Shown here: piece by piece, positions 1 through 12,974 of the stretch
How the letters are laid out: each line of letters starts with the position of its first letter
Position numbering within the stretch: position 1 is the stretch's first letter
Source: a virus
Taxonomy: Duplodnaviria > Heunggongvirae > Uroviricota > Caudoviricetes
DNA: 12,974 bases
Virus record (IMG/VR): IMGVR_UViG_2648501669_000022
Location: 1 to 12,974 of that record
Strand: one strand, 5' to 3'
Position numbers and translations under genes: made by a program
Notes under the pieces: model-generated
The model's database searches: none
Told to the model about the DNA's origin: nothing
The model's input: the letters and a program-made list of their open reading frames with translations, nothing else

Positions 1-1215
1 ATGCTGCTTTCAGACCTTGCCATCAGGCGCGCGAAGCCGAAAGAAAAGGCTTATACACTCAATGACGGTAACGGGCTTTCGTTGCTCATTGAGCCGAACG
101 GTTCGAAAGGGTGGCGACTGCGCTACAGGTTTGCAGGAAAGCCCAAAATGTTGTCGTTGGGTGTGTACCCTGATGTGTCTCTGTCTGATGCCAGGGCGGC
201 AAGGGATGAGGCTAAAAGGCTTCTTGCTGGTGGTATAAATCCAAGTGAGGCCAGAAAAGCCCAAAAGCGAGAACAGGCGAGCAAATTTGGCAATACTTTT
301 GAGGGTATTGCTCGTGAATGGTACGAAAAGCGGATCGACAGGTGGTCATCGTCATACGCCGAGGAAATGATCGAGACGTTTGAAAAAGATGTTTTTCCGT
401 ACATTGGCGGTAGGCCGATCGCAGAAATTAAGCCGATGGAATTGCTGGCGGTTCTTTCCCGTCTTAATGACCGTGGTGCGACTGAAAAATTGCGTAAGGT
501 TCGCCAGCGATGCGGCGAGGTGTTCCGGTACGCAATCATCACCGGACGCGCCGAATATAATCCAGCCCCTGACCTGGTGAGCGCATTTGCTCCACATAAA
601 AAAGAGCATTACGCCTATCTGAAGGCCGACGAACTGCCGGAATTTTTCCGCGTTTTTAATACGTACACCGGAAGCCAGATCGTCAAACTGGCAATGCGGC
701 TATTAATTCTGACAGGTGTCAGACCCGGGGAATTACGGCAGGCAGAATGGCAGGAGATCGATTTTGATAATCGTTTGTGGGAAGTGCCTAAAGAACGAAT
801 GAAGATGCGCCGTCCGCATTGTGTGCCATTACCAGAACAGGCGATAAAAATACTGGAGCAGTTAAAAAACATGACAGGCCAGTATCAGTTTATTTTCCCC
901 GGTCGTATTCACCACAGTAAGCCAATGAGTGAAATGGCGATGAATGTGCTCATTCGTCGTATCGGCTATGCCGGGCGCGTTACTGGTCATGGATTCCGGC
1001 ACACCATGAGCACCATTTTGCATGAGCAGGGCTATAACACTGCGTGGATAGAGACGCAGCTCGCACACGTCGATAAAAACTCAATTCGTGGCACATACAA
1101 CCATGCGCAATATCTGGATGGTCGCCGGGAGATGCTCCAGTGGTATGCCGACTATATGGATTCGCTCGAGCATGGCGGAAATGTGGTGCATGGTGAGTTC
1201 GGAAAATGCGGGTGA
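1..1215 (+). CDS. int: Tyrosine recombinase / integrase, P4-type
   Basis: 404-aa ORF. N-terminal arm-binding-like region (AKPKEKAYTLNDGNGLSLLIEPNGSKGWRLRYRFAGKPKMLSLGVYPDVSL) typical of P4-family integrases; C-terminal catalytic signature HGFRHT plus downstream Tyr (RGTYNHAQY). Stop TGA at 1213-1215. Confidence 0.9.
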   Translation: MLLSDLAIRRAKPKEKAYTLNDGNGLSLLIEPNGSKGWRLRYRFAGKPKMLSLGVYPDVSLSDARAARDEAKRLLAGGINPSEARKAQKREQASKFGNTFEGIAREWYEKRIDRWSSSYAEEMIETFEKDVFPYIGGRPIAEIKPMELLAVLSRLNDRGATEKLRKVRQRCGEVFRYAIITGRAEYNPAPDLVSAFAPHKKEHYAYLKADELPEFFRVFNTYTGSQIVKLAMRLLILTGVRPGELRQAEWQEIDFDNRLWEVPKERMKMRRPHCVPLPEQAIKILEQLKNMTGQYQFIFPGRIHHSKPMSEMAMNVLIRRIGYAGRVTGHGFRHTMSTILHEQGYNTAWIETQLAHVDKNSIRGTYNHAQYLDGRREMLQWYADYMDSLEHGGNVVHGEFGKCG

Positions 1216-1343
1216 CTGGTTGAGTATACAGTAGTAGACTTTGAGCGACGAAAGAAAAGGCTGTGTCTAGGGTCGCTCCCGAAAATCCGTACACCTCGAC
1301 GGACTGGTACAGCCACTACAGTAGAGGACGCTGAGGTGTGCGT

Positions 1344-2141
1344 ATGATTGATATTCATGCCGAATTAAACGAATACAAAAAAGATTTTATTTCTTTACGT
1401 GAATTTCTTGAGGTCGTGCTTAAGGTCGCTGGTGATGATTATGATGTTTCAGATGTCATAACTTGGATACTCAGGAGAATAAGCGGAGAACATATCCGCC
1501 TGTACACAGTAAATGAATTTAAGCTGTTGGAATCTTTTTGTAGCCCGTATCGGGATGAATTTGATTATGATGTTCTTTATAGAAATCTGAATGCGGTTCG
1601 GAAACGTGGTTGTTTACCTGGTGAGAGGGATGAAAATGGTTTTCTGGTGTCCGGTTATTGGGAAGATCCCGAATTTGAGAACATTGGATTTATAAGGGGT
1701 GAAATTTTCGCAATTTTTCCCGATGTCCTTGACGCGTTAACGAAGCTGGAAGGCGCTAACTCTTCTGAAAATGACGAGGCACAAGGACGCGATATTGAAA
1801 AGAAAGAGTTGCGTACAGAGGATGATTTATTATCCCAAATCGCAATGCTGGAAAAAGAAAACGCAGAGTTAAGGGCAAGGATAGAGCAGTTAGAGCAAGA
1901 GCGCCCGATACACTTATATAAATACTGGGATAAAGACCCATTAGCTAAGGCTATTGAGATTAGAAACAGAGAGTGGGCCAATTACGATCCAGAAAATGAT
2001 TTTGCCACCAGGGGAAATCAAGAAGCGATAACCAGGGAGCTTAAGCAGTGGGGGGCAAGTAATGCACTTGCAACGCTCATAGAGAGGACTGCCTGCCCTA
2101 TTAACCGAGACAACAGCCAAAAGAACGCAAAGCCGGATTAA
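1344..2141 (+). CDS. Hypothetical cargo protein (265 aa) with a central leucine-zipper-like coiled coil; function unknown
   Basis: ATG at 1344 with GAGGT 6 nt upstream (the track's 1338 start is a GTG lying on the SD). Visibly AT-richer codon usage than its neighbours. Heptad-like segment LLSQIAMLEKENAELRARIEQLEQER. Followed immediately by a strong intrinsic terminator. No catalytic motif recognised. Confidence 0.65.
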   Translation: MIDIHAELNEYKKDFISLREFLEVVLKVAGDDYDVSDVITWILRRISGEHIRLYTVNEFKLLESFCSPYRDEFDYDVLYRNLNAVRKRGCLPGERDENGFLVSGYWEDPEFENIGFIRGEIFAIFPDVLDALTKLEGANSSENDEAQGRDIEKKELRTEDDLLSQIAMLEKENAELRARIEQLEQERPIHLYKYWDKDPLAKAIEIRNREWANYDPENDFATRGNQEAITRELKQWGASNALATLIERTACPINRDNSQKNAKPD

Positions 2142-2154
2142 CGCACCATACCGC

Positions 2155-2197
2155 ATACCCTGAGGGTGATTTACTGTTACCCTCAGGGTATTTTTTT
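2155..2197 (+). terminator. Rho-independent terminator after the cargo gene
   Basis: Perfect 13-bp stem ATACCCTGAGGGT (2155-2167) / ACCCTCAGGGTAT (2179-2191), 11-nt loop, then a run of 7 T (2191-2197). Confidence 0.8.
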
Positions 2198-2214
2198 ATC
2201 TTCCCCGTCAATTT

Positions 2215-2302
2215 TACCATCACCCTTAGGGTAGATTTCCTCCCGATTACCATCACCCTTATGGTTAATTTCCTTCCGGTAACCATTAGGCCTGAGGGTA
2301 TG
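2215..2302. repeat. Tandem 33-bp direct repeat (2.6 copies) carrying ACCCT-N-AGGGT palindromes, upstream of alpA
   Basis: Unit 1 (2215-2247) and unit 2 (2248-2280) are 28/33 identical; partial third unit 2281-2302. Palindromes ACCCTTAGGGT (2222-2232), ACCCTTATGGT (2255-2265), CCTGAGGGT (2291-2299); the same palindrome forms both arms of the upstream terminator. Confidence 0.7.
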
Positions 2303-2368
2303 AAAATATTCGTTATTTCTGTGCCATGATTACCTCGTCAAATTGAGTAGACGTTATGAGGTAAATAT

Positions 2369-2566
2369 ATGTCAAATACGCTTATTCGTTTAACAGAAGT
2401 TCAGCGTAGAACTGGATATAGCAAGGCATGGATTTATCGCCTTATGGGGCAAGGTAAATTTCCTGCATCAGTTAAAATTGGCTCGCGAGCTATTGCTTTC
2501 GTTGAGAGTGAAATTGACGAGTGGATTAATCAGCGTATTGCGGAATCACGCGGAACAGCTACCTGA
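2369..2566 (+). CDS. alpA: AlpA-family (Xis/MerR-like HTH) transcriptional regulator
   Basis: 65 aa; RLTEVQRRTGYSKAWIYRLMGQGKFPASVKIGSRAIAFVESEIDEWINQR matches the AlpA/Vis-type signature found next to P4-family integrases. GAGG 7 nt upstream of the ATG. Confidence 0.85.
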   Translation: MSNTLIRLTEVQRRTGYSKAWIYRLMGQGKFPASVKIGSRAIAFVESEIDEWINQRIAESRGTAT

Positions 2567-2643: not shown

Positions 2644-3444
2644 ATGAAACTGCGAAAAACGCCCGTACAGGGGCAGGGCTTCGTTCGGCCTGAAAACCAG
2701 AATCTGCAAAATTTCGGCGAAATTATCCCGATTATTTCCGGCGTTATTGGCGGGAGTGAAACCACTATTGTTAGCGCCAGAGCGTTACATAAGGCGTTAG
2801 GTGTAGGGCGCGTTTTCCGTTCGTGGATCAAGGGGCGCATTGAAGAATACGGGTTCACGGAAGGCGTGGATTATGAGGTTGTTGAATATTTGAGCCGACC
2901 CGATCCGGTGAGCGCAAAATCTCGCCAGCAAACCGCTCTTGAGTACATCATCACAGTGAACATGGCGAAAGAACTGGCGATGGTCGAACGTACCGAACAG
3001 GGCCGCGCCGTTCGCCAGTACTTTATCAAATGCGAGGAGGAGCTACACAAGGTAGCGCCAGTGCGTTCCGCAGCGTTACGCCGGGAACTGAAAGCCCGTA
3101 TCACCGTTGCCAGCTACTTTAAGCCAATGTGTGCCGCGCTGGAGGCGTACCGGGCTGAACTGGGTAAAAACACGTTCCAGCACCACTACACCACGGAAGC
3201 CAATATGCTGGCGCGTATCGTGCTGGGTGGCATGACTGCAAAACAGTGGGCGCAGGCGAACGGCATCACAGGCGAACCACGCGACCACATGAGCACGTTG
3301 CAGCTTGAGCACCTTTCTTACCTTGAGCAGAGCAATATCACGCTGATTGAGTTAGGCCAGGGCTACCACCAGCGGAAAGCTGAATTAATTCGTCTTTCGC
3401 AGCGTTGGTTAGCCCGTCGCATGGAGGAAAACAGCCATGTGTAA
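2644..3444 (+). CDS. AntA/AntB-type antirepressor-like protein (N-terminal domain), C-terminal domain unknown
   Basis: 266 aa; N-terminal segment SARALHKALGVGRVFRSWIKGRIEEYGFTEGVDYEV resembles the AntA/AntB N-terminal domain as I remember it. AGGAG 5 nt upstream of the ATG. Confidence 0.6.
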   Translation: MKLRKTPVQGQGFVRPENQNLQNFGEIIPIISGVIGGSETTIVSARALHKALGVGRVFRSWIKGRIEEYGFTEGVDYEVVEYLSRPDPVSAKSRQQTALEYIITVNMAKELAMVERTEQGRAVRQYFIKCEEELHKVAPVRSAALRRELKARITVASYFKPMCAALEAYRAELGKNTFQHHYTTEANMLARIVLGGMTAKQWAQANGITGEPRDHMSTLQLEHLSYLEQSNITLIELGQGYHQRKAELIRLSQRWLARRMEENSHV

Positions 3445-3750
3445 CGCTCTGACCGTTACAAAAAGAAAAAGCGCCCCGTTGCCGGAGCGCCTTTGTGAAC
3501 GAATAGCCTACTGCGCCATATTGCTTACTGTCTACGAGGCAGATTATAGCGTTGTGGTCGCACAGAGTGAAGGCGCAGATCACCGTTACTACAGCACACC
3601 AGAAATGCAGAATATTTTGCTGCAAAATGTCGTTGGCCACGCTGTCCGGAAAGCAAAAAATTTTGCTGGTGGCGTGACTGATACGATTTTTTCTGGTTGC
3701 TCGGTGCTGATCAACTTAACCTGGACTTATGTACAACATTGCAACTATTC

Positions 3751-3897
3751 CTACTTTAAGCTGAATGTAACTTTACCTATATCATTAGAGGTATGGTCGC
3801 GCTTGACCTCAATTTCACCATTTTGTAGCCCTGCTACAAAAAAATATAAAAGTGTCAATGTTGCTGCAATCAGTAACCATTTTCCAAAAATATACAT
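3751..3897 (-). CDS. Small membrane peptide (48 aa), not in the ORF track
   Basis: Translated by hand from the minus strand: MYIFGKWLLIAATLTLLYFFVAGLQNGEIEVKRDHTSNDIGKVTFSLK. One predicted TM helix at the N-terminus. Starts 21 nt downstream of the Arc-like stop on the same strand; AT-rich; weak SD-like AAGGG upstream. Confidence 0.35.
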   Translation of the reverse strand: MYIFGKWLLIAATLTLLYFFVAGLQNGEIEVKRDHTSNDIGKVTFSLK

Positions 3898-3918
3898 TCT
3901 TGATTTTACCCTTAATCG

Positions 3919-4092
3919 TCAACCTTTTGGCACGATGCCTCGCTGTTGTAATTCTTTGCGGAGCACTCGTTTAATCCAGGTAGCTAATGAGGTGTCGCCG
4001 TCTGCTTTGGCTGCCTCCTCAAGTTGTGCCCTAAATTCTTCTGGTAGCCGCATTTGGTATGGTGGCGATCGTTTTTCTAATGGTGTTGACAT
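3919..4092 (-). CDS. Arc/MetJ-type ribbon-helix-helix DNA-binding protein (57 aa), not in the ORF track
   Basis: Translated by hand from the minus strand: MSTPLEKRSPPYQMRLPEEFRAQLEEAAKADGDTSLATWIKRVLRKELQQRGIVPKG. Beta-strand-like PYQMRLP followed by two helices is the Arc/Mnt pattern. The start codon is embedded in a palindromic operator. Confidence 0.65.
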   Translation of the reverse strand: MSTPLEKRSPPYQMRLPEEFRAQLEEAAKADGDTSLATWIKRVLRKELQQRGIVPKG

Positions 4093-4144
4093 GGTAATTA
4101 CCCATAATTACTATAGTTACACGGTAATTACCATTGTACTTACC
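4093..4144. promoter_or_regulatory. Divergent promoter/operator region: perfect 10-bp palindrome GGTAATTACC x2 plus a degenerate third site
   Basis: GGTAATTACC at 4093-4102 (abutting the Arc-like start codon) and 4123-4132, 30 bp centre to centre; degenerate copy GTACTTACC at 4136-4144; TATAGT-like -10 for the minus strand at 4111-4116. Confidence 0.55.
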
Positions 4145-4228
4145 ATTGCAAAAAAAACAACGCCCCGGACTGCGGGAACAGTACCAGGGCGTCTAACCAC
4201 CAACGATAGCGAAAGTATCGAGGTAGCT

Positions 4229-4432
4229 ATGATAAATCATACCACACACCCGCAAGGGCGGGACTCGCACAACCTGAATAAATACATCTGGCGTTTTATC
4301 GCCCTGAGCACGGCACAACCGCGCGTAATTCACATCGAGGCCACCAGCGAACAGGAAGCACGCCAGCAATCTCCTGATGGCTGCGTGATGGTATTCGCCG
4401 CCCGTATTCGCCAGGAGGTGCACCATGCATAA
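4229..4432 (+). CDS. Hypothetical protein (67 aa), first gene of the replication operon
   Basis: This is only the 3' part of the 331-aa track ORF (3437-4432). ATG at 4229 with GAGGT 4 nt upstream; the upstream 800 nt of that ORF overlaps the Arc-like gene and the intergenic region and translates to low-complexity sequence. Stop overlaps the next start. Confidence 0.5.
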   Translation: MINHTTHPQGRDSHNLNKYIWRFIALSTAQPRVIHIEATSEQEARQQSPDGCVMVFAARIRQEVHHA

Positions 4433-4987: not shown

Positions 4988-5278
4988 ATGAAAAAGAAAA
5001 ATTCTGGCTTTACTGCCAGCGGCCCCGCTCGGCCTGAAATCAGACACGGAGATATTTACCGCGACACCAGACGTGGGGGACGAGTGGTTATTCGTCACGT
5101 TACGCCAGGCAATATCACCTACCGCCGTGAGGCTTACGAATATGACTGCGTAATGCCGCGCCGTCAGTTTGAGCGTGATTTTATTCTGGTGGAAAACAAA
5201 CAACAGGCGGTGGCAAGACGTGCAGCCACGAATATTAAAAAAATCCGGGCAATGTTGGTTGCGGGAGGTAAGAAGTGA
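4988..5278 (+). CDS. Hypothetical basic protein (96 aa)
   Basis: ORF with AGGAAAA upstream; stop overlaps the GTG start of the helicase gene. No family recognised with confidence. Confidence 0.5.
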   Translation: MKKKNSGFTASGPARPEIRHGDIYRDTRRGGRVVIRHVTPGNITYRREAYEYDCVMPRRQFERDFILVENKQQAVARRAATNIKKIRAMLVAGGKK

Positions 5279-6687
5279 AAAACGCACCGAATTTGAAATA
5301 TCAGCCGAAGGATAAATTCACTGAGGTAATCATTTTTGCCGGGACGGACGCTTACTCCCATGCTCAACACTGGATTGAAAGCGAAGGACGGAAACACGGC
5401 GATAATGTGCCACCTGTTTACCTGGGGCCAAAGCAACTGGCAGACCTGGCGAATATCCGCATTATTGACGAGAAACGCCGCTTTGCACGTGTCTATCTCG
5501 CGGGGGAGATCGAACCAATCCAGATCAATGCTATCGCTGAAAAGCTGGCGCTGGCTGGCGTACAGGAGGCGAAATTATACAAAGGTATCACCGACCGGGA
5601 GCCGGAGAACTGGCGCGACTACCTGCAACGGATCCGCGAACAGGCAGAGCGCGAAGAAATGCTTACTGACGAGCAATACAGCCAGCGAAAAACCACACTA
5701 CCAATGAGTATTGGATCTGCAGGGTACGACACACAGCTTGATTATGTCGTTAAGGGCGTGATTCCGGCTAATTCATTGTGCAGCACATACGGCGCGAGCG
5801 GTTCCTATAAATCGTTCCTCGCGTGTTCCTGGGCGTGTCATGTTGCCACGGGTCGCCACTGGGGAGGCCGCAGGGTGGCGCATGGTTCGGTGATGTATGT
5901 CGTCGGTGAAGGTGGCATTGGTGTCCCTCGTCGTATCAAAGCATGGGAAATCGTTAATGATGAACGGGTGAAAAATCTGTACCTGGTAAACCGCCCGATT
6001 TTTCCGGCGGTCCCGCTTGATGTTGATGAAATGGTCATCGCTTCCCGTCAGGTTGAACGGGAAACGGGTAAACCGGTACGCATGATTATTCTGGATACGC
6101 TGGCGCGTTGCTTTGGCGGTAATGATGAAAATGACGCGCGGGATATGGGGGCGTTTATCCGTGGATGTGACGAACTGAAACGACGCACGGGGGCCACGGT
6201 ACTGGTGGTTCACCATTCCGGCAAGGATGAAACAAAAGGGGCGCGTGGTTCCAGTGCATTTCGTGCATCTCTGGACGCTGAATACCGTATTCGCCGTGAA
6301 GGTGCGGACAGTGAAGCCCTGGTTATCTCCTGCACCAAAATGAAGGACGCGGAGGAACTGAAAGAGGCTGCATATGATTTACGCGTGGTGGAGCTTTTTA
6401 CCGACACTGACGGGGAGTTAATCACGTCGCTGGTGGTTGTGGATAAGCCGCGCCCACCTGTTGAACTGGAACGCATCGAGGAGGCCGGGAACAAGACGGA
6501 AAATCACGCTGCGCTATGGCAGTGCATCAGAACGCGAACAGCACACGGGGAGGCGTGCACTATCGCCCTTCTCCGCGATGATATGAAAAAGCTGGGGTAT
6601 GAAATGAAAAACTTCCGGCGCTGGCTGTACAAGCTGGAAAGCGACGGCGTAATCGCTATTGACGGTGATTATGTGCGCCCACTGTAA
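5275..6687 (+). CDS. RepA/DnaB-like RecA-fold replicative helicase (the family I remember as AAA_25), probable replication initiator of the island
   Basis: 470 aa; GTG start with GGGAGGT 5 nt upstream. Walker A-like GASGSYKS, Walker B-like ILDTLARCF, and VLVVHHSGK motif typical of RepA-type helicases. Its stop abuts the iteron array. Confidence 0.8.
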   Translation: MKNAPNLKYQPKDKFTEVIIFAGTDAYSHAQHWIESEGRKHGDNVPPVYLGPKQLADLANIRIIDEKRRFARVYLAGEIEPIQINAIAEKLALAGVQEAKLYKGITDREPENWRDYLQRIREQAEREEMLTDEQYSQRKTTLPMSIGSAGYDTQLDYVVKGVIPANSLCSTYGASGSYKSFLACSWACHVATGRHWGGRRVAHGSVMYVVGEGGIGVPRRIKAWEIVNDERVKNLYLVNRPIFPAVPLDVDEMVIASRQVERETGKPVRMIILDTLARCFGGNDENDARDMGAFIRGCDELKRRTGATVLVVHHSGKDETKGARGSSAFRASLDAEYRIRREGADSEALVISCTKMKDAEELKEAAYDLRVVELFTDTDGELITSLVVVDKPRPPVELERIEEAGNKTENHAALWQCIRTRTAHGEACTIALLRDDMKKLGYEMKNFRRWLYKLESDGVIAIDGDYVRPL

Positions 6688-9037: not shown

Positions 9038-9709
9038 ATGCTTTTAACAGAAATTGAGGCGGCAAAGCAGATTCGGGACGGTCAGCTACCGTCGCCTTAT
9101 CAGTTTTCCAACATGTGGCTGGTTAACCTGCGTATTACAGGAACCGGTATGGCCTACCGCGCCGAAGAAAAAGAATTTGTCTGGCGTTCACCGCAAACTT
9201 ATCTCAATCCGCAGTTCCTGGAACGTTGCGCCGGAGTACCCGTCATTATCGACCATCCCGAAGGCAAAACCATTGAAGACGTTGGCGAACGGTCGCGCAT
9301 TATTGGCACCGTCATGTTGCCGTATATTCGCGGTGACGAGGTGTGGGGTGTATGCCGGATTTACGGGCAGGAAATCATCGATTACATCCAGAAAGCACGG
9401 GGGGAGGTATCCACCAGCCCGTCGGTTGTGTTTTGTGGTGCGTCCGGTGGGGCAGAAGTTCCTGATGTAATGGGCGAGGACAATTTTTTCATTGAGGGTA
9501 CGCCATTCCTTATCGATCACGTTGCGCTCGTGCCGCTTGGTGTTTGGGATAAGGGCGGGAAACCATCGGGTGTGGAGGTAACAACGCCGACAGCAGAAGA
9601 ACAGCTCGCCGGAATGGTCCGGGACGTTATTGATGCGGCCTGCAAGCCAGCCCTGGAAAAACTGGAAGAAATATCCGGGCGGCTGGCTCAACTGGAAAAA
9701 ACAGAGTGA
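9038..9709 (+). CDS. Hypothetical protein (223 aa); weak resemblance to HK97-type prohead proteases
   Basis: Size and a His (VPVIIDHPEG, residue 73) to Ser (GEVSTSP, residue 125) spacing of about 52 aa recall HK97-family prohead proteases; this is memory of motif shape only. C-terminus is coiled-coil-like. Confidence 0.55.
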   Translation: MLLTEIEAAKQIRDGQLPSPYQFSNMWLVNLRITGTGMAYRAEEKEFVWRSPQTYLNPQFLERCAGVPVIIDHPEGKTIEDVGERSRIIGTVMLPYIRGDEVWGVCRIYGQEIIDYIQKARGEVSTSPSVVFCGASGGAEVPDVMGEDNFFIEGTPFLIDHVALVPLGVWDKGGKPSGVEVTTPTAEEQLAGMVRDVIDAACKPALEKLEEISGRLAQLEKTE

Positions 9710-9716
9710 GTGAATC

Positions 9717-10334
9717 ATGAAAATTGCTAAAAACTTAAATCTGATTATCCCTGTGCGCACTGAAAAGGGAAATGGCTGGATCCATGCCACGCCGATCAGC
9801 AAAGAGGTGTTTAAAGAGCATTTCTTCATCCTGAGTAAAACCTTTTCTGCCATTTTTTCTGAAGGTCTTGGTGTTGTTGCGGGTCCGCGCGTTGCCTGCC
9901 TTATGCTGGAGAAAATCTCCCGTGACTCCGGTTTATGGGATGGGGAGAAAGGCATACGTAATACGCTCATAAACGAAATTATTCGCCTGGCAAACCTTGT
10001 TTATCCAGTGGAGGGCAAAGGCTACGACACAATCCCTCTCGATATGGCGCTGGAGCGTGAAATCGTTGATTTGGACGAAGTGGCGGGTGAACTTGTTTTT
10101 TTTACATGCGTCTCGTCGATAAATTCCCCGGAGCAGACGAAGGGGACTATGGATGCGGTGAATGGAATATGGAGCACTCAATGCTCGTCCTTGAGTCTTA
10201 CGGAATGGATCGCTTCATTGCCGACATTGAAGCCTGCCGTCAGTTCTGGCGCGACGGCGAACACGTCATCAGCGACATCCTCGACTACTCAGCCGGAGCC
10301 GGATTCAGAGACATCTGTGCAGATTCCGGTCTGA
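9717..10334 (+). CDS. Hypothetical protein; zero-frame ORF convincing only to about 10105, possible tail-assembly-chaperone-like gene
   Basis: GAGTGAG 6 nt upstream of the ATG. The first ~129 codons look protein-like; after the T8 run the zero frame becomes Ser/Thr-rich low complexity and loses the G-rich first codon position, which the -1 frame shows instead. Confidence 0.5.
   Translation: MKIAKNLNLIIPVRTEKGNGWIHATPISKEVFKEHFFILSKTFSAIFSEGLGVVAGPRVACLMLEKISRDSGLWDGEKGIRNTLINEIIRLANLVYPVEGKGYDTIPLDMALEREIVDLDEVAGELVFFTCVSSINSPEQTKGTMDAVNGIWSTQCSSLSLTEWIASLPTLKPAVSSGATANTSSATSSTTQPEPDSETSVQIPV
10097..10103 (+). other. Candidate -1 slippery heptamer T_TTT_TTT within a T8 run (10096-10103)
   Basis: Zero-frame codons are GTT TTT TTT. 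The -1 frame has a stop at 10088-10090, opens at 10091 and runs to 10399. Confidence 0.4.
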
Positions 10335-10399
10335 ATGTAAAAACAGCAGCTCAGTTTCGTGAGCTGCTCAAATTCAAGAATCCCGCAGGAGTATTGTAA
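10106..10399 (+). CDS. -1 frame ORF (97 codons from the ATG), likely translated as a frameshift extension of the upstream gene or as its own product
   Basis: Better codon-position bias than the overlapping zero frame; its stop overlaps the next start (TAATG at 10397-10401), indicating translational coupling to the 680-aa gene. Confidence 0.5.
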   Translation: MRLVDKFPGADEGDYGCGEWNMEHSMLVLESYGMDRFIADIEACRQFWRDGEHVISDILDYSAGAGFRDICADSGLNVKTAAQFRELLKFKNPAGVL

Positions 10400-12441
10400 T
10401 GTCAGGTAATCAGATGCCAGTTCTGACGCTGGACGTTAATGAAGAACACCTCAAACGGCTTGAGGCAATTTTTGAAAAGTATCGCAACGGGCTGATGATC
10501 GGCCCTGCAGGAACGCCGATGAAAATACCGGGGCAAAGTGGGCGCAGCGTGGGGGCAGGCTTACCCGTGGCGGCAAAATCTGGTCGGACAGGACCGGATG
10601 TATCCGGGAGAGTGAGGGACGAAAAAGGGCGCTTTGTCGGCAGTGGAAAAACAGCAGATTCGTTCGTAAGCAACTATAAAGGTCGCGGCGAAACGATGTT
10701 TGATAAGTATCTCAGCGGGCTGGGGAAAAATGCCCAACAGACGCTGAAAACTTACAAGCAGATCAATTCTACGCTACAGACGACCACTTCGAGATTAAAC
10801 AACCTGTTTAAAACAACCGTATCGTGGGGGACAAAACTTGCGGTTATGGGCGTTGCCGGGCCGTTTGGCTTTGGCATGATGTCTCGTAGTGTTGTAGAGA
10901 AACAGAAAAATGCAGATGAGCTGGTGGCAACGCCGGGAGAATTAAAGGCGGCAGAGAGTACCTATTCACCTTATTTTTCCGGTGTTGGCAATGTGCTCAA
11001 TACACTGGCAGCCGCGCAAAATGATCAAGAACACCCCGCCCGCGTTGGCCTGCTTCATCTGGGGATTAATCCTGATAAAAACGCGACTGAAAACCTGCCT
11101 GTATTCCTGAAAAAGGTTGCAGAGCTGGCAAAGGAATATCAGGGAAGTGGTCTTACCCAGAGTATGCTCAGGGGAAGAGGGCTTGGATGGGTAAATTTTG
11201 GTCTTACTAACCAGTTAGTCAAATATCAGGACAAAATACCTGAACTCAACAAAGAGTTTTCGTTACGTGCAGCGCAGAATGATTCGTTACTGACCTCTGC
11301 ACATACAAGTAAATATCAGAATCTTACCAGTAACCTGGAAAAAAACTGGGATCGGCTTACCAGCGGATTTCAGGGAGCAATGGCGGGGAATGAAGACGCT
11401 TTAATCAGAATGTCTGATGGTACCACGAATGCTGCCCTGAATTTCATGAATGGTGAGAACTTTAAAAGGATTCTGACTGATGTTGAAACGGGGCTGGATA
11501 AACTTGGTAAGTACGTTAATGGCCCGGATTTTAATAACGACCTGAACAATTTTGCCGAAAACGTTGCAAAGGTCACCAAGGCACTTAGCGGATTTGTTGG
11601 TTTTGCCGTTGAACATCCCTGGCTTTTTGGGGCCGCAGTGCTTGCGGGGCCATCAAGAGTTGGTGCCGTGGCAGCCACAACAACCGGAGTTGCCGCTCGT
11701 GTTGTCGGTGGAAGTCTTCTTGGGGCTACAGCCGGAACAGTAGCAGGATTGGCTATTCCTACAAATAACACACCTACCACCAGTGAGGAAATGAAAGGGC
11801 TGGAGGGGCGTTTCAACTTTGATTATTTTAACGAAGTGCAGGAGTGGCAAAAAAACAATCCGGGTAAGGTCTGGCCTGGAGGATTGCAGGGATTTTCAAA
11901 TCAAGTAAACAGATCTGCATATTTATCCAGAGGGATCAGGAATAACAATCCCGGAAATCTTAATTTCGCAGGACAAAAAGGGGCTACCCTGGAATCGGGG
12001 CCAAATGCCCGTTTTGCCAGCTTCCCGACGATGCTGGAAGGCATTGCTGCCTTAGATCGGCAGGTAATGCTATACCTGAAACGCGGCAAAAATACGATTG
12101 ATCAGATCATTGATATTTATGCCCCTTCATCTGATGGAAATAACACATCGTCCTATAAAAGCTATCTCTCTCAGTACACCGGTTTAGGTGTTAAGGAGAA
12201 AATTGATGGTTCTAATTTTGAGGTCATGAAAAAGCTAATTCAGGGCATTATTAACCATGAAAATGGTGCTGCCGCTAAAGCTGTAAGTGTTGAAGATGTG
12301 ATCCGGGCGCTGGCTATGAATCGTGGGATTGTCCCTACAGCAGGAAATAATAATCAGAACGTTAAGCTTGATATTCTTCAAAAACCAGGCTCCGACATAG
12401 TCGCTCAACTGGCCGGATTTTCGGGGCTTATGCCGAGGTAA
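10399..12441 (+). CDS. Large tape-measure-like protein (680 aa) with Gly/Ala-rich hydrophobic segments and a C-terminal NNPGN-motif domain
   Basis: AGGAG 7 nt upstream of the ATG. Central segment AVEHPWLFGAAVLAGPSRVGAVAATTTGVAARVVGGSLLGATAGTVAGLAIP; N/T/S/K-rich helical regions; C-terminal RGIRNNNPGNLNF...IYAPSSDGNN. The gene itself is well supported; the function is a guess. Confidence 0.7.
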   Translation: MSGNQMPVLTLDVNEEHLKRLEAIFEKYRNGLMIGPAGTPMKIPGQSGRSVGAGLPVAAKSGRTGPDVSGRVRDEKGRFVGSGKTADSFVSNYKGRGETMFDKYLSGLGKNAQQTLKTYKQINSTLQTTTSRLNNLFKTTVSWGTKLAVMGVAGPFGFGMMSRSVVEKQKNADELVATPGELKAAESTYSPYFSGVGNVLNTLAAAQNDQEHPARVGLLHLGINPDKNATENLPVFLKKVAELAKEYQGSGLTQSMLRGRGLGWVNFGLTNQLVKYQDKIPELNKEFSLRAAQNDSLLTSAHTSKYQNLTSNLEKNWDRLTSGFQGAMAGNEDALIRMSDGTTNAALNFMNGENFKRILTDVETGLDKLGKYVNGPDFNNDLNNFAENVAKVTKALSGFVGFAVEHPWLFGAAVLAGPSRVGAVAATTTGVAARVVGGSLLGATAGTVAGLAIPTNNTPTTSEEMKGLEGRFNFDYFNEVQEWQKNNPGKVWPGGLQGFSNQVNRSAYLSRGIRNNNPGNLNFAGQKGATLESGPNARFASFPTMLEGIAALDRQVMLYLKRGKNTIDQIIDIYAPSSDGNNTSSYKSYLSQYTGLGVKEKIDGSNFEVMKKLIQGIINHENGAAAKAVSVEDVIRALAMNRGIVPTAGNNNQNVKLDILQKPGSDIVAQLAGFSGLMPR

Positions 12442-12446
12442 TACCC

Positions 12447-12974
12447 ATGCTAATGAGTAAAGCAGAATATGCTAAACACAAAGGCGTAAGCCGCCAGACA
12501 GTTTACGACTGGATCGAGAAAGGCGAAGTGGTCATGTCCGGTAAAAAAATCGATGTGGAAGCGACAGAGCAGCGGAACAGCCCACCAGCACAGGAAAAAG
12601 ACACAGTTTCTGAAATGTGGCCAGAGAGAACGCTGGAAATGACGTGGGGCGAGTTCTGGAAAGCAGTTAAGGCCAGAGACGGTAAAATCCCTGCACCAGT
12701 AACGGACGATGACATACAGCAGCGTGTGCAGGATGCAGCCGGGGAATTAGGCTGGGAAGTGCACTTTCTTGATGATGGTGCTATCTGCCTTGAGGATGAT
12801 GAAGGGCAGCATTACTTTGAAAAATACAATTTGCGAGGTAATGCCAGGCTGGCAATTCGTATGCTGCGTTGCGAACTCTGCTATGTTGCAGGTGATTATC
12901 CCGATGAACTGGAATCATGGAGTGAAGCCGGGCTAAACGCCCTGGCTGAATGGGAAAAATCAGGCCATCAATGA
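12447..12974 (+). CDS. HTH protein (175 aa) with a Nu1-like small-terminase N-terminal signature; candidate TerS or packaging-redirection factor
   Basis: GAGGT 7 nt upstream of the ATG. N-terminus SKAEYAKHKGVSRQTVYDWIEKGEVVMSGKKIDVEA parallels lambda Nu1 (KKQLADIFGASIRTIQNWQEQGMPVLRGGGKGNEVLYDSAA) from memory. Acidic C-terminal half. Stop TGA is the last codon of the window. Confidence 0.45.
   Translation: MLMSKAEYAKHKGVSRQTVYDWIEKGEVVMSGKKIDVEATEQRNSPPAQEKDTVSEMWPERTLEMTWGEFWKAVKARDGKIPAPVTDDDIQQRVQDAAGELGWEVHFLDDGAICLEDDEGQHYFEKYNLRGNARLAIRMLRCELCYVAGDYPDELESWSEAGLNALAEWEKSGHQ

What the first reader, a model, noticed from the sequence alone, without database searches (positions are those of the whole stretch)
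2155..2302. The terminator arms and a downstream 33-bp tandem repeat share one palindrome (ACCCT-N-AGGGT) upstream of alpA
The same half-site pair ACCCT/AGGGT occurs at least five times in ~150 bp: both arms of the terminator hairpin, then once per 33-bp repeat unit (units 28/33 identical), then a degenerate copy just before the alpA promoter region. An array of dyad sites phased at ~33 bp (about three helical turns) looks like a cooperative operator for a dimeric regulator controlling alpA, the presumed induction switch.
Basis: seen in the sequence. Interest (0 to 1): 0.5.

Follow-up and report, generated by a model that had tools for sequence, protein, structure and literature searches.

The report
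Operator-like palindrome array upstream of alpA
A phased, strongly conserved array of ACCCT-N-AGGGT palindromes sits in front of the master-switch gene alpA of a phage-satellite island, and it travels only with the uncharacterised gene just upstream, which therefore looks like a previously unrecognised regulator of island induction.

Summary
Five ACCCTnAGGGT sites lie at 2157-2299 (0, 0, 0, 1 and 2 mismatches). The first two form a strong hairpin followed by T7. Two more sit in a 33-bp tandem repeat.

Comparative data show this is a functional cis-element. In 26 non-redundant island lineages the flanks are unalignable, yet the palindromes persist at fixed distances from the alpA ATG (-108, -151, -174, -206). 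The centre base is free. Spacings fall at about 2, 3, 4 and 5 helical turns.

The array does not track AlpA. Among islands chosen only by AlpA similarity, 8 of 11 with the upstream gene ("g2", 1338-2141) have sites, against 0 of 68 without it. Islands without g2 carry other genes in that slot, each with its own repeat array.

Best reading: an operator array for the g2 protein, which has a variable N-terminus, a coiled coil and a conserved C-terminal helical domain with no Pfam match. The array would control the alpA promoter. The two distal sites also serve as the int-g2 terminator hairpin. Binding and the sign of regulation are inferred, not shown.

The parts
1338..2141 (+). g2: uncharacterised 267-aa protein. 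Variable N-terminal domain, disordered linker, long coiled-coil helix (about res 161-188) and a conserved C-terminal helical domain of about 70 aa (..ERPILL.KYRDDDPL.LAI.IRN.EW..YD.END..TRGNQ....IE.VACPIKR). Proposed binder of the array.
   Evidence: No Pfam, PHROG, NCBIfam or PDB sequence match. Alignments. AF2 models. Co-occurs with the array.
2155..2198 (+). Hairpin (2155-2191) plus T7 tract (2192-2198): intrinsic-terminator-like element 14 nt after the g2 stop codon. Its two arms are sites S1 and S2.
   Evidence: dG -28.6, z -7.9. Covariation of the equivalent pair in 18 lineages. T-tract absent in most other lineages.
2157..2167 (.). Site S1, ACCCTGAGGGT (centre -207 from the alpA ATG)
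   Evidence: Conserved position class.
2179..2189 (.). Site S2, ACCCTCAGGGT (centre -185). Most E. coli relatives have G at the centre.
2214..2286 (+). 33-bp tandem repeat (units 2214-2246 and 2247-2279, then a partial third). Copy number is 1, 2 or 3 in related E. coli islands.
2222..2232 (.). Site S3, ACCCTTAGGGT (centre -142), preceded by a degenerate third half-site (TTACCATC)
2255..2265 (.). Site S4, ACCCTTATGGT (centre -109). This is the most strictly positioned site across lineages (-107 to -109). Perfect in most relatives.
2282..2299 (.). Degenerate proximal element ACCATTAGG|CCTGAGGGT: an imperfect 18-bp palindrome made of two overlapping weak sites (S5 = GGCCTGAGGGT, 2289-2299, centre -75). 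It is a perfect palindrome, ACCATTAGGCCTAATGGT, in L047/L021/L055.
   Evidence: read directly from the sequences
2322..2330 (+). Extended -10-like element TGcCATGAT (putative alpA promoter, no recognisable -35). A TGn-NAnnWT match lies at the same distance from the ATG in 22 of 26 g2+ lineages.
   Evidence: The standard consensus scan found no promoter. The TSS is not determined.
2332..2362 (+). alpA leader inverted repeat (ACCTCGT ... ATGAGGT) whose 3' arm contains the Shine-Dalgarno GAGG (2358-2361). It travels with alpA irrespective of g2.
2369..2566 (+). alpA (65 aa, PF05930/HTH_17), the master activator of Gram-negative PICI-type satellites
   Evidence: PMC6092414 and PMC11773190.

Best explanation
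The 2157-2299 array is a cis-regulatory operator for the alpA promoter. It is built from dyad-symmetric sites with extended consensus (CCCT-W-)ACCCT-N-AGGGT-AA, placed on one face of the DNA helix. It is most likely bound cooperatively by dimers or higher oligomers of the protein encoded immediately upstream (g2, 1338-2141), through its coiled coil and conserved C-terminal helical domain. The strong sites lie about 75-175 bp upstream of a putative extended -10 promoter. A weak double site abuts the -35 region, so occupancy of the array would set alpA transcription and hence island induction. The two distal sites are reverse complements of each other. In this lineage they are followed by a U-tract, so the same DNA also forms the terminator that stops int-g2 transcripts from reading into alpA. 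Shown: the sites, their conservation, phasing and anchoring to alpA; the exclusive co-occurrence with g2; the hairpin. Inferred: that g2 binds DNA, that the promoter is where predicted, and the sign of regulation. I lean slightly towards a repressor or gatekeeper relieved by a helper-phage protein acting on the variable N-terminal domain, but an activator is equally compatible.
For: (1) Phylogenetic footprint. In 26 non-redundant g2+ lineages (AlpA 72-100% identical) the intergenic DNA is otherwise diverged. There are 74 sites with up to 1 mismatch, with a free centre base (information content 0.05 bit), peaking at -108, -151, -174 and -206 from the ATG.
(2) Helical phasing. Adjacent spacings cluster at 21-24, 32-34, 42-44 and 55 bp. 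Mean resultant length is 0.83 at 10.5-10.8 bp per turn, nominal Rayleigh p about 1e-15.
(3) Anchoring to alpA. Sites stay at -108/-152/-185 even where the intergenic region is longer and has a separate terminator (L109/L110).
(4) Association with g2. All 54 loci found with the g2 C-domain profile have alpA downstream. All 21 that were inspected, which include the most divergent, have ACCCT/AGGGT-type sites in between. In the set chosen by AlpA, 8 of 11 g2+ loci have sites against 0 of 68 g2- (Fisher p = 6e-9). Over all unique regions, 45 of 50 against 0 of 68 have at least 2 sites.
(5) Specificity swaps. Other proteins in the int-alpA slot come with other arrays. At least 4 ACTTCCA direct repeats occur in 11 g2- regions and in 0 g2+ regions. 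Distant g2 C-domain homologues (L114/L137/L126; hhalign prob 83%, E = 9.5e-6) carry GGTGGG-type inverted repeats instead.
(6) g2 architecture fits a dimeric sequence-specific binder. It has a long helix with coiled-coil-only PDB hits and a compact four-helix C-domain (pLDDT 84-92).
(7) The helper-type phage Kapi1 has no enrichment of the motif: 12 matches, all with 2 mismatches, against 8.9 expected.
Confidence: 0.55

Rival explanations
1. The sites are operators for some other trans-factor: a host protein of Enterobacterales, a helper-phage regulator, or another island protein. In that case g2 is merely a linked neighbour, for example a cargo or defence gene in a variable hotspot between int and alpA.
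For: The slot between int and alpA holds many unrelated gene families, as accessory hotspots do. g2 has no recognisable DNA-binding fold. Published work shows helper-dependent induction of alpA promoters in islands that lack g2 (PMC6092414; PMC11773190).
Against: The sites are absent from all 68 g2- alpA loci in the same bacterial families, so a general host or helper route to alpA does not need them. Each slot family has its own array, and a diverged g2 C-domain goes with a diverged motif. Kapi1 has no such sites. antA, Arc-like and PerC are missing from many array-bearing islands.
Confidence: 0.2
2. The array acts mainly at the RNA level. Because every site is a palindrome, any two copies can pair. 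S1:S2 would be a terminator, and alternative pairings (S2:S3, S3:S4) would act as anti-terminator or attenuator structures that control read-through from int-g2 into alpA, possibly together with antitermination by AlpA.
For: Strong hairpin plus U7 in the window. The equivalent 21-24-bp site pair has complementary centre bases in 8 of 13 lineages (p = 0.006) and covarying flanks: 19 double-change cells against 7.2 +/- 2.2, 0 of 500 shuffles. In L097/L098 the pair carries mirrored asymmetric changes, ACCGTGAGGGT / ACCCTCACGGT. P. aeruginosa AlpA is an antiterminator (PMC7969949, PMC9371919).
Against: Helical-turn spacing and a fixed distance to the alpA start have no meaning for RNA pairing. The best-conserved site (-108) is solitary. 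S3 and S4 have T/T centres. The U-tract is missing in most lineages. Positions 5 and 7 (T, A) are as conserved as the rest. No Rfam family matches.
Confidence: 0.12
3. The sites are AlpA's own autoregulatory binding sites.
For: AlpA activates its own promoter in EcCICFT073 and EcCIMP1 (PMC6092414; PMC11773190). The array lies upstream of alpA.
Against: Sixty-eight unique alpA loci with AlpA 68-87% identical, retrieved largely through the RTGYSKAW stretch of the helix-turn-helix region, have no site with up to 1 mismatch within 320 bp upstream. EcCIMP1 itself (AlpA 81% identical) has no array. What does travel with alpA is the proximal leader inverted repeat, not the array.
Confidence: 0.06
4. 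A neutral tandem duplication or chance palindromes without function, or replication iterons or integrase arm sites.
For: The 33-bp unit varies in copy number (1-3), as slippage-prone repeats do.
Against: Conservation across genera against diverged flanks. The array is 2.1 kb from the att end and 3 kb from the primase/replication gene. The sites are palindromes, not the direct repeats typical of iterons or arm sites.
Confidence: 0.02

Closest known systems
SaPI/PICI master repressor Stl (Rpr) and its operators in Gram-positive cocci
   Same: An island-encoded regulator next to the induction promoter. One module of the regulator is variable, which could read different helper-phage proteins. The system controls the first gene of the satellite's lytic programme.
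   Different: Stl is divergently transcribed from its target, whereas g2 is co-directional and upstream. There is no sequence or fold relationship. DNA binding, repression and anti-repression by a phage protein are all untested here. Gram-negative PICIs are described as lacking such a repressor (PMC6092414).
Lambdoid tripartite operators (OR/OL) and other cooperative arrays of dyad sites
   Same: Several dyad-symmetric sites of graded quality, phased on one helical face, with the weakest site nearest the core promoter. This implies cooperative occupancy.
   Different: The half-sites are only 6 bp apart centre to centre (an 11-bp palindrome). That is much tighter than the roughly 10 bp typical of classical HTH dimers (my recollection, not tested here). 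Sites are spread over about 130-150 bp at 2-5 turns. The binder is not a Cro/CI-type protein.
Rho-independent terminator
   Same: In the window there is a GC-rich 16-bp stem, a 5-nt loop and a U7 tract, 14 nt after a stop codon.
   Different: The stem arms are two copies of the operator palindrome. The U-tract is restricted to a few lineages, while the hairpin potential is more widely kept.
EcCIMP1 (E. coli MP1 PICI; Pick, Stadel and Raivio 2025, PMC11773190) and EcCICFT073 (PMC6092414)
   Same: The same kind of satellite: int, AlpA subfamily (81% identity to EcCIMP1 AlpA), antA, Icd-like, a primase-type replication gene, PerC and phage ejection-protein genes. alpA is helper-induced and autoactivated.
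   Different: EcCIMP1 has no g2 and no ACCCTnAGGGT array. Its 427-bp int-alpA spacer is unrelated. The published alpA reporter therefore does not test this array.

Membership tests
Operator array for a dimeric DNA-binding regulator | Repeated dyad-symmetric sites sharing one consensus | tested here: met
   Five sites in the window. A matrix from 74 sites shows 10 informative positions and a free centre.
Operator array for a dimeric DNA-binding regulator | Sites conserved while the surrounding DNA diverges (phylogenetic footprint) | tested here: met
   26 non-redundant lineages from E. coli, Salmonella, Klebsiella, Pantoea, Raoultella and others.
Operator array for a dimeric DNA-binding regulator | Helical phasing or fixed geometry relative to the regulated promoter | tested here: met
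   Spacings are about 2, 3, 4 or 5 turns. The proximal strong site is fixed at -107 to -109 from the ATG. The promoter itself is only predicted.
Operator array for a dimeric DNA-binding regulator | A cognate protein shown to bind the sites | not testable with these tools
   Only co-occurrence with g2 and covariation with C-domain type.
Rho-independent terminator | Stable GC-rich stem-loop immediately followed by a U-tract, downstream of a gene | tested here: met
   for the window. The stop codon is at 2139-2141.
Rho-independent terminator | Conservation of the stem (covariation) and of the U-tract in relatives | tested here: inconclusive
   The stem has covariation support, although the shuffle control ignores phylogeny. 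A U-tract is present in only about 3 of 13 lineages. S40-type E. coli lost one arm.
Stl/Rpr-type PICI master repressor system | Regulator gene divergently transcribed from the lytic operon, with operators in between | tested here: not met
   g2 and alpA are on the same strand and g2 is upstream.
Stl/Rpr-type PICI master repressor system | Recognisable DNA-binding (HTH) domain in the regulator | tested here: inconclusive
Stl/Rpr-type PICI master repressor system | Derepression through a complex with a helper-phage protein | not testable with these tools
   Only the variable N-terminal domain is suggestive.
AlpA binding element (AlpA-type autoregulation or antitermination site) | The element co-occurs with AlpA of the same DNA-binding specificity | tested here: not met
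   0 of 68 g2- alpA loci carry a site. EcCIMP1 lacks it.
Replication iterons | Direct repeats adjacent to the initiator gene or origin | tested here: not met
   The sites are palindromes, about 3 kb upstream of the primase/AAA_25 gene at 5275-6687.
Integrase arm-type sites | Located in the att arms near the core and present wherever that integrase type is | tested here: not met
   The array is about 2.1 kb from the int-proximal island end. Integrases 54-100% identical accompany the same array.

The most novel reading that the evidence does not exclude
The g2 family, and by analogy the other protein families that occupy the int-alpA slot each with its own repeat array, is the missing helper-sensing master regulator of a large class of Gram-negative PICI-type satellites. 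A conserved C-terminal DNA-binding module would hold the alpA promoter through the phased palindrome array. Exchangeable N-terminal domains would read different helper-phage proteins. Swapping whole regulator-plus-operator cassettes would then re-target islands to new helpers.
Probability: 0.3. Interest if true: 0.78.

Novelty: new variant of a known kind. Interest (0 to 1): 0.6.

Why it matters
How helper phages switch on alpA, and thereby induce Gram-negative phage-inducible chromosomal islands, is an acknowledged open question. [quoted passage not shown] This analysis defines a concrete cis-element and a candidate trans-factor family. The family has no Pfam domain and is found across Enterobacterales, including a Salmonella protein listed in about 1,800 index blocks of public assemblies. 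The question therefore becomes directly testable with gel shifts, reporters and deletions. The analysis also shows that the int-alpA slot holds interchangeable gene-plus-array cassettes. That pattern is easy to exploit for annotating satellites and for predicting the specificity of induction.

Tried and rejected
(1) I first equated g2 with EcCIMP1_002 and the array with the published alpA-lux reporter. This was wrong: E. coli MP1 has neither g2 nor the array.
(2) AlpA as binder: rejected by the 0-of-68 result.
(3) A Kapi1 regulator with native sites of this kind: no enrichment in the Kapi1 genome.
(4) The Arc-like protein (3919-4092, minus strand): it has its own GGTAATTACC palindromes and was not found in most array-bearing loci with long downstream sequence.
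(5) Homology between the N-terminal parts of g2 and the 'ACTTCCA-array' family: not supported (BLASTP E = 1.7, hhalign prob 0.5%).
(7) Rfam: no family.
(8) The standard sigma-70 scan found no promoter, so the extended -10 is my reading from conservation.
(9) The minus-strand ORF 2101-2286 (61 aa) that overlaps the array: no CDS is annotated across the array in the related records, and it is broken by the 22-bp deletion seen in relatives. I rejected it as a gene.
(10) No paper in the library maps alpA operators or mentions this motif.

Full report
**1. The observation**

The window carries, on the + strand: an integrase gene (1-1215), an unannotated 267-aa ORF that I call g2 (1338-2141), alpA (2369-2566, PF05930), antA, an Icd-like gene, a primase-type gene, ProQ/FinO and PerC.

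In the 227-bp g2-alpA spacer the pattern ACCCTNAGGGT occurs at these positions:
- 2157, 2179 and 2222 (exact)
- 2255 (1 mismatch)
- 2289 (2 mismatches)

About 0.011 exact matches are expected in the whole window. The chance of five matches with up to 2 mismatches in 143 bp is about 8e-10.

The first two sites are the arms of a 16-bp hairpin (2155-2191) followed by T7. As RNA it has dG -28.6 kcal/mol, z = -7.9. The next two sites lie in a 33-bp tandem repeat whose units are 28/33 identical. The fifth is part of an imperfect 18-bp palindrome, ACCATTAGG|CCTGAGGGT.

**2. Close relatives**

The region occurs in 148 of 5,426 complete E. coli genomes, always chromosomal. In the six records fetched it lies next to tRNA-Thr (thrW, after proA) in five and next to a tRNA-Gly in one.

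The repeats are plastic:
- strain 55989 has one 33-bp unit
- MB06173 has three
- S40 has lost one 22-bp unit and so has only one hairpin arm

Most E. coli copies have G at the centre of both arms, which gives a G/G mismatch in the stem. The window's C makes the stem perfect. Its S4 T-substitution is also private to the window.

**3. Phylogenetic footprint**

A scan of IMG/VR for two palindromes 8-36 bp apart returned 52 loci, of which 35 also encode an AlpA relative. A scan with the g2 C-terminal profile returned 54 loci. Islands whose AlpA is only 72-89% identical, and whose g2 C-domain is as low as 37% identical, have intergenic sequence that no longer aligns.

Even so, ACCCTnAGGGT persists at fixed centres relative to the alpA ATG: -108, -151, -174 and -206. 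A second arrangement has -107, -162 and -205. In 74 sites from 26 non-redundant lineages:
- the centre base is unconstrained (0.05 bit)
- all ten half-site positions are strongly conserved
- the site extends to T-W-ACCCTnAGGGT-A-A
- more than half of the sites have an extra upstream CCCT half-site; the window's TTACCAT is a degenerate copy of it

Adjacent spacings fall into classes of 21-24, 32-34, 42-44 and 55 bp. That is 2, 3, 4 and 5 helical turns (mean resultant 0.83 at 10.5-10.8 bp per turn).

The sites are anchored to alpA, not to the g2 stop. L109/L110 have a longer spacer with a separate canonical terminator, yet keep sites at -108, -152 and -185. These are the properties of a protein-binding operator on double-stranded DNA.

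**4. Who binds?**

The decisive test was a scan of one genome per species with an AlpA profile. It found 458 relatives, of which the best 80 were kept, with AlpA 68-87% identical. They were retrieved largely through the RTGYSKAW stretch of the helix-turn-helix region.
- Sites with up to 1 mismatch occur in 8 of 11 loci that have a g2 C-domain gene upstream.
- They occur in 0 of 68 loci that lack one (Fisher p = 6e-9).
- Over all unique upstream regions held, 45 of 50 g2+ regions have at least 2 sites, against 0 of 68 g2- regions.

The array therefore tracks g2, not AlpA. antA, the Arc-like gene and PerC were not found in the array-bearing loci that carry about 10 kb of downstream sequence. The Arc-like gene (3919-4092, minus strand) has its own GGTAATTACC palindromes. 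The helper-type phage Kapi1 has no enrichment of the motif.

Islands without g2 carry other protein families in the int-alpA slot, each with a different array:
- One family, whose C-terminus reads ..VTDKAL..LI.EAL.., goes with 4-6 direct ACTTCCA repeats. This pattern is seen in 11 g2- regions and 0 g2+ regions.
- Distant homologues of the g2 C-domain (L114/L137/L126; hhalign prob 83%, E = 9.5e-6) have TRGNQ and ACPIK replaced, and go with GGTGGG-type inverted repeats.

This protein-motif covariation is the best available evidence that the slot protein is the binder. It remains an inference.

**5. The g2 protein**

g2 has no Pfam, PHROG, NCBIfam or PDB sequence match. A word-indexed profile search returned 110 homologues (at 90% clustering), nearly all from Enterobacterales and one from Mannheimia. 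All are annotated as hypothetical. In Salmonella a 144-aa short form lies behind a translationally coupled 101-aa ORF, followed by the same array and alpA.

The architecture is:
- a variable N-terminal domain
- a disordered linker
- a long helix; the only PDB profile hits are coiled coils
- a conserved four-helix C-domain, pLDDT 84-92 when modelled with 45 sequences

**6. The hairpin**

Two copies of one palindrome are automatically complementary, so a hairpin comes almost for free. There are nevertheless signs of selection on it:
- In 13 lineages the 21-24-bp site pair has complementary centre bases 8 times, against an expectation of 3.25 (p = 0.006).
- Several pairs are perfect or near-perfect 15-bp inverted repeats with asymmetric flanks: L006 and L136 15/15, L083 and the window 14/15.
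- L097/L098 carry mirrored changes, ACCGTGAGGGT / ACCCTCACGGT.
- On an 18-lineage alignment there are 19 double-change cells against 7.2 +/- 2.2, exceeded in 0 of 500 shuffles. This control ignores phylogeny.

A U-tract follows in only a few lineages. I conclude that the distal site pair doubles as a 3' stem-loop for the int-g2 transcript, and that it is a full intrinsic terminator in the window's lineage.

**7. Promoter geometry (inferred)**

The consensus scan finds no sigma-70 promoter. However, a TGn-NAnnWT extended -10-like element (window 2322-2330, TGcCATGAT) sits at the same distance from the ATG in 22 of 26 g2+ lineages.

If transcription starts near 2337, the site centres lie at about -43 (weak double site), -77, -110, -153 and -175. 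Strong distal sites plus a weak site abutting the -35 region fit two models equally well. One is cooperative repression. The other is class-I/II-type activation of a promoter that lacks a -35 element. I cannot decide the sign.

**8. Relation to published work**

These islands are PICI-type satellites. In EcCICFT073 and EcCIMP1, alpA is the master activator. It is switched on by the helper phage and activates its own promoter. The inducing factor is unknown (PMC6092414; PMC11773190).

EcCIMP1 itself has no g2 and no array, so its reporter data do not bear on this element. I initially assumed otherwise and corrected this. No paper in the library describes the motif or the g2 family.

**9. Verdict**

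The operator interpretation is supported in substance, but with a different and previously unrecognised candidate binder.

My estimates:
- The array is a protein-binding cis-regulator of alpA: about 0.85.
- g2 is the binder: about 0.55-0.6.
- Repressor versus activator: unresolved.

The finding is a new variant of a known kind of system, namely an operator array with an adjacent regulator. It touches an open question in satellite biology and is immediately testable.

Noticed in passing
window 2332-2362 (and the last ~40 nt before alpA in L114-L193): The alpA leader carries an inverted repeat whose 3' arm contains the Shine-Dalgarno sequence. Across alpA loci the arms change in a compensatory way (CTCGTAA/TTACGAG, CTCCTGTAG/CTACAGGAG, CTCCTATAG/CTATAGGAG, CACCTCA/TGAGGTG, GACTCCAGT/ATTGGAGTC). 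This suggests a conserved SD-sequestering hairpin, or else an operator, that travels with alpA regardless of the upstream gene.
   Followed up: partly
L115, L120, L121, L131, L141, L144, L151, L161, L166, L183, L185 (upstream of alpA): Islands lacking g2 have a different protein family in the int-alpA slot (C-terminus ..GK.TALK.IAGMAIALE...VTDKAL..LI.EAL..). These loci carry 4-6 direct ACTTCCA(A/C)A repeats upstream of alpA. DUF6387 proteins and others occupy the slot elsewhere. The slot appears to hold exchangeable gene-plus-array cassettes.
   Followed up: partly
window 3437-4432, 3919-4092 (-), 4093-4146: The 331-aa ORF 3437-4432 is an over-extension. Only its last ~50 residues match any family (Icd-like, residues 283-326). 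On the opposite strand lies a 57-aa weakly Arc-like ORF (3919-4092, Pfam Arc E = 0.006). Its start is flanked by two GGTAATTACC palindromes (4093-4102 and 4123-4132, within 12-bp inverted repeats) and by TTACCAT repeats. This looks like a second, separate operator region between divergent genes.
   Followed up: partly
window 1-2141 versus L001, L002, L005, L012: Mosaicism. The window's integrase is 99-100% identical to that of L005 (tRNA-Gly island) and L012, but only 66% identical to the integrase of the thrW islands L001/L002. Its g2 is 99-100% identical to L001/L002 and only 67% and 34% identical to L005 and L012. This points to recombination between int and g2.
   Followed up: no
window 2155-2286; L002, L003, L004, L033: Copy-number polymorphism among E. 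coli: 1, 2 or 3 copies of the 33-bp unit, and loss of one 22-bp unit (one hairpin arm). The number of operator sites and the terminator stem therefore vary between otherwise near-identical islands.
   Followed up: partly
L195 3199-3935 (Salmonella enterica): In Salmonella the g2 homologue is a 144-aa short form. Its start overlaps the stop of a 101-aa ORF (3199-3504 / 3501-3935), as if the long form's N-terminal domain were a separate, translationally coupled protein. This protein is listed in about 1,800 index blocks of public assemblies.
   Followed up: no
window 9038-12974: The island encodes phage-virion-type proteins: a 680-aa protein with a transglycosylase/injection-protein-like region (phrog_7694), a DUF2213-like protein, and a TerS-like HTH protein at 12447-12974. 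EcCIMP1, whose helper is the P22-like phage Kapi1, also carries ejection-protein and lytic-transglycosylase genes, so a podovirus helper is likely here too.
   Followed up: no
window 2101-2286 (-): A 61-aa minus-strand ORF runs through the array. No CDS is annotated across the array in the related records, and the ORF is broken by the 22-bp deletion seen in relatives. Most likely not a gene.
   Followed up: partly
L194 19025-19045 (E. coli MP1, EcCIMP1 int-alpA spacer): EcCIMP1's unrelated spacer contains AGGGTAG-CT-CTACCCT. This uses the same pentamers in the opposite (outward) arrangement. It is probably coincidence.
   Followed up: no
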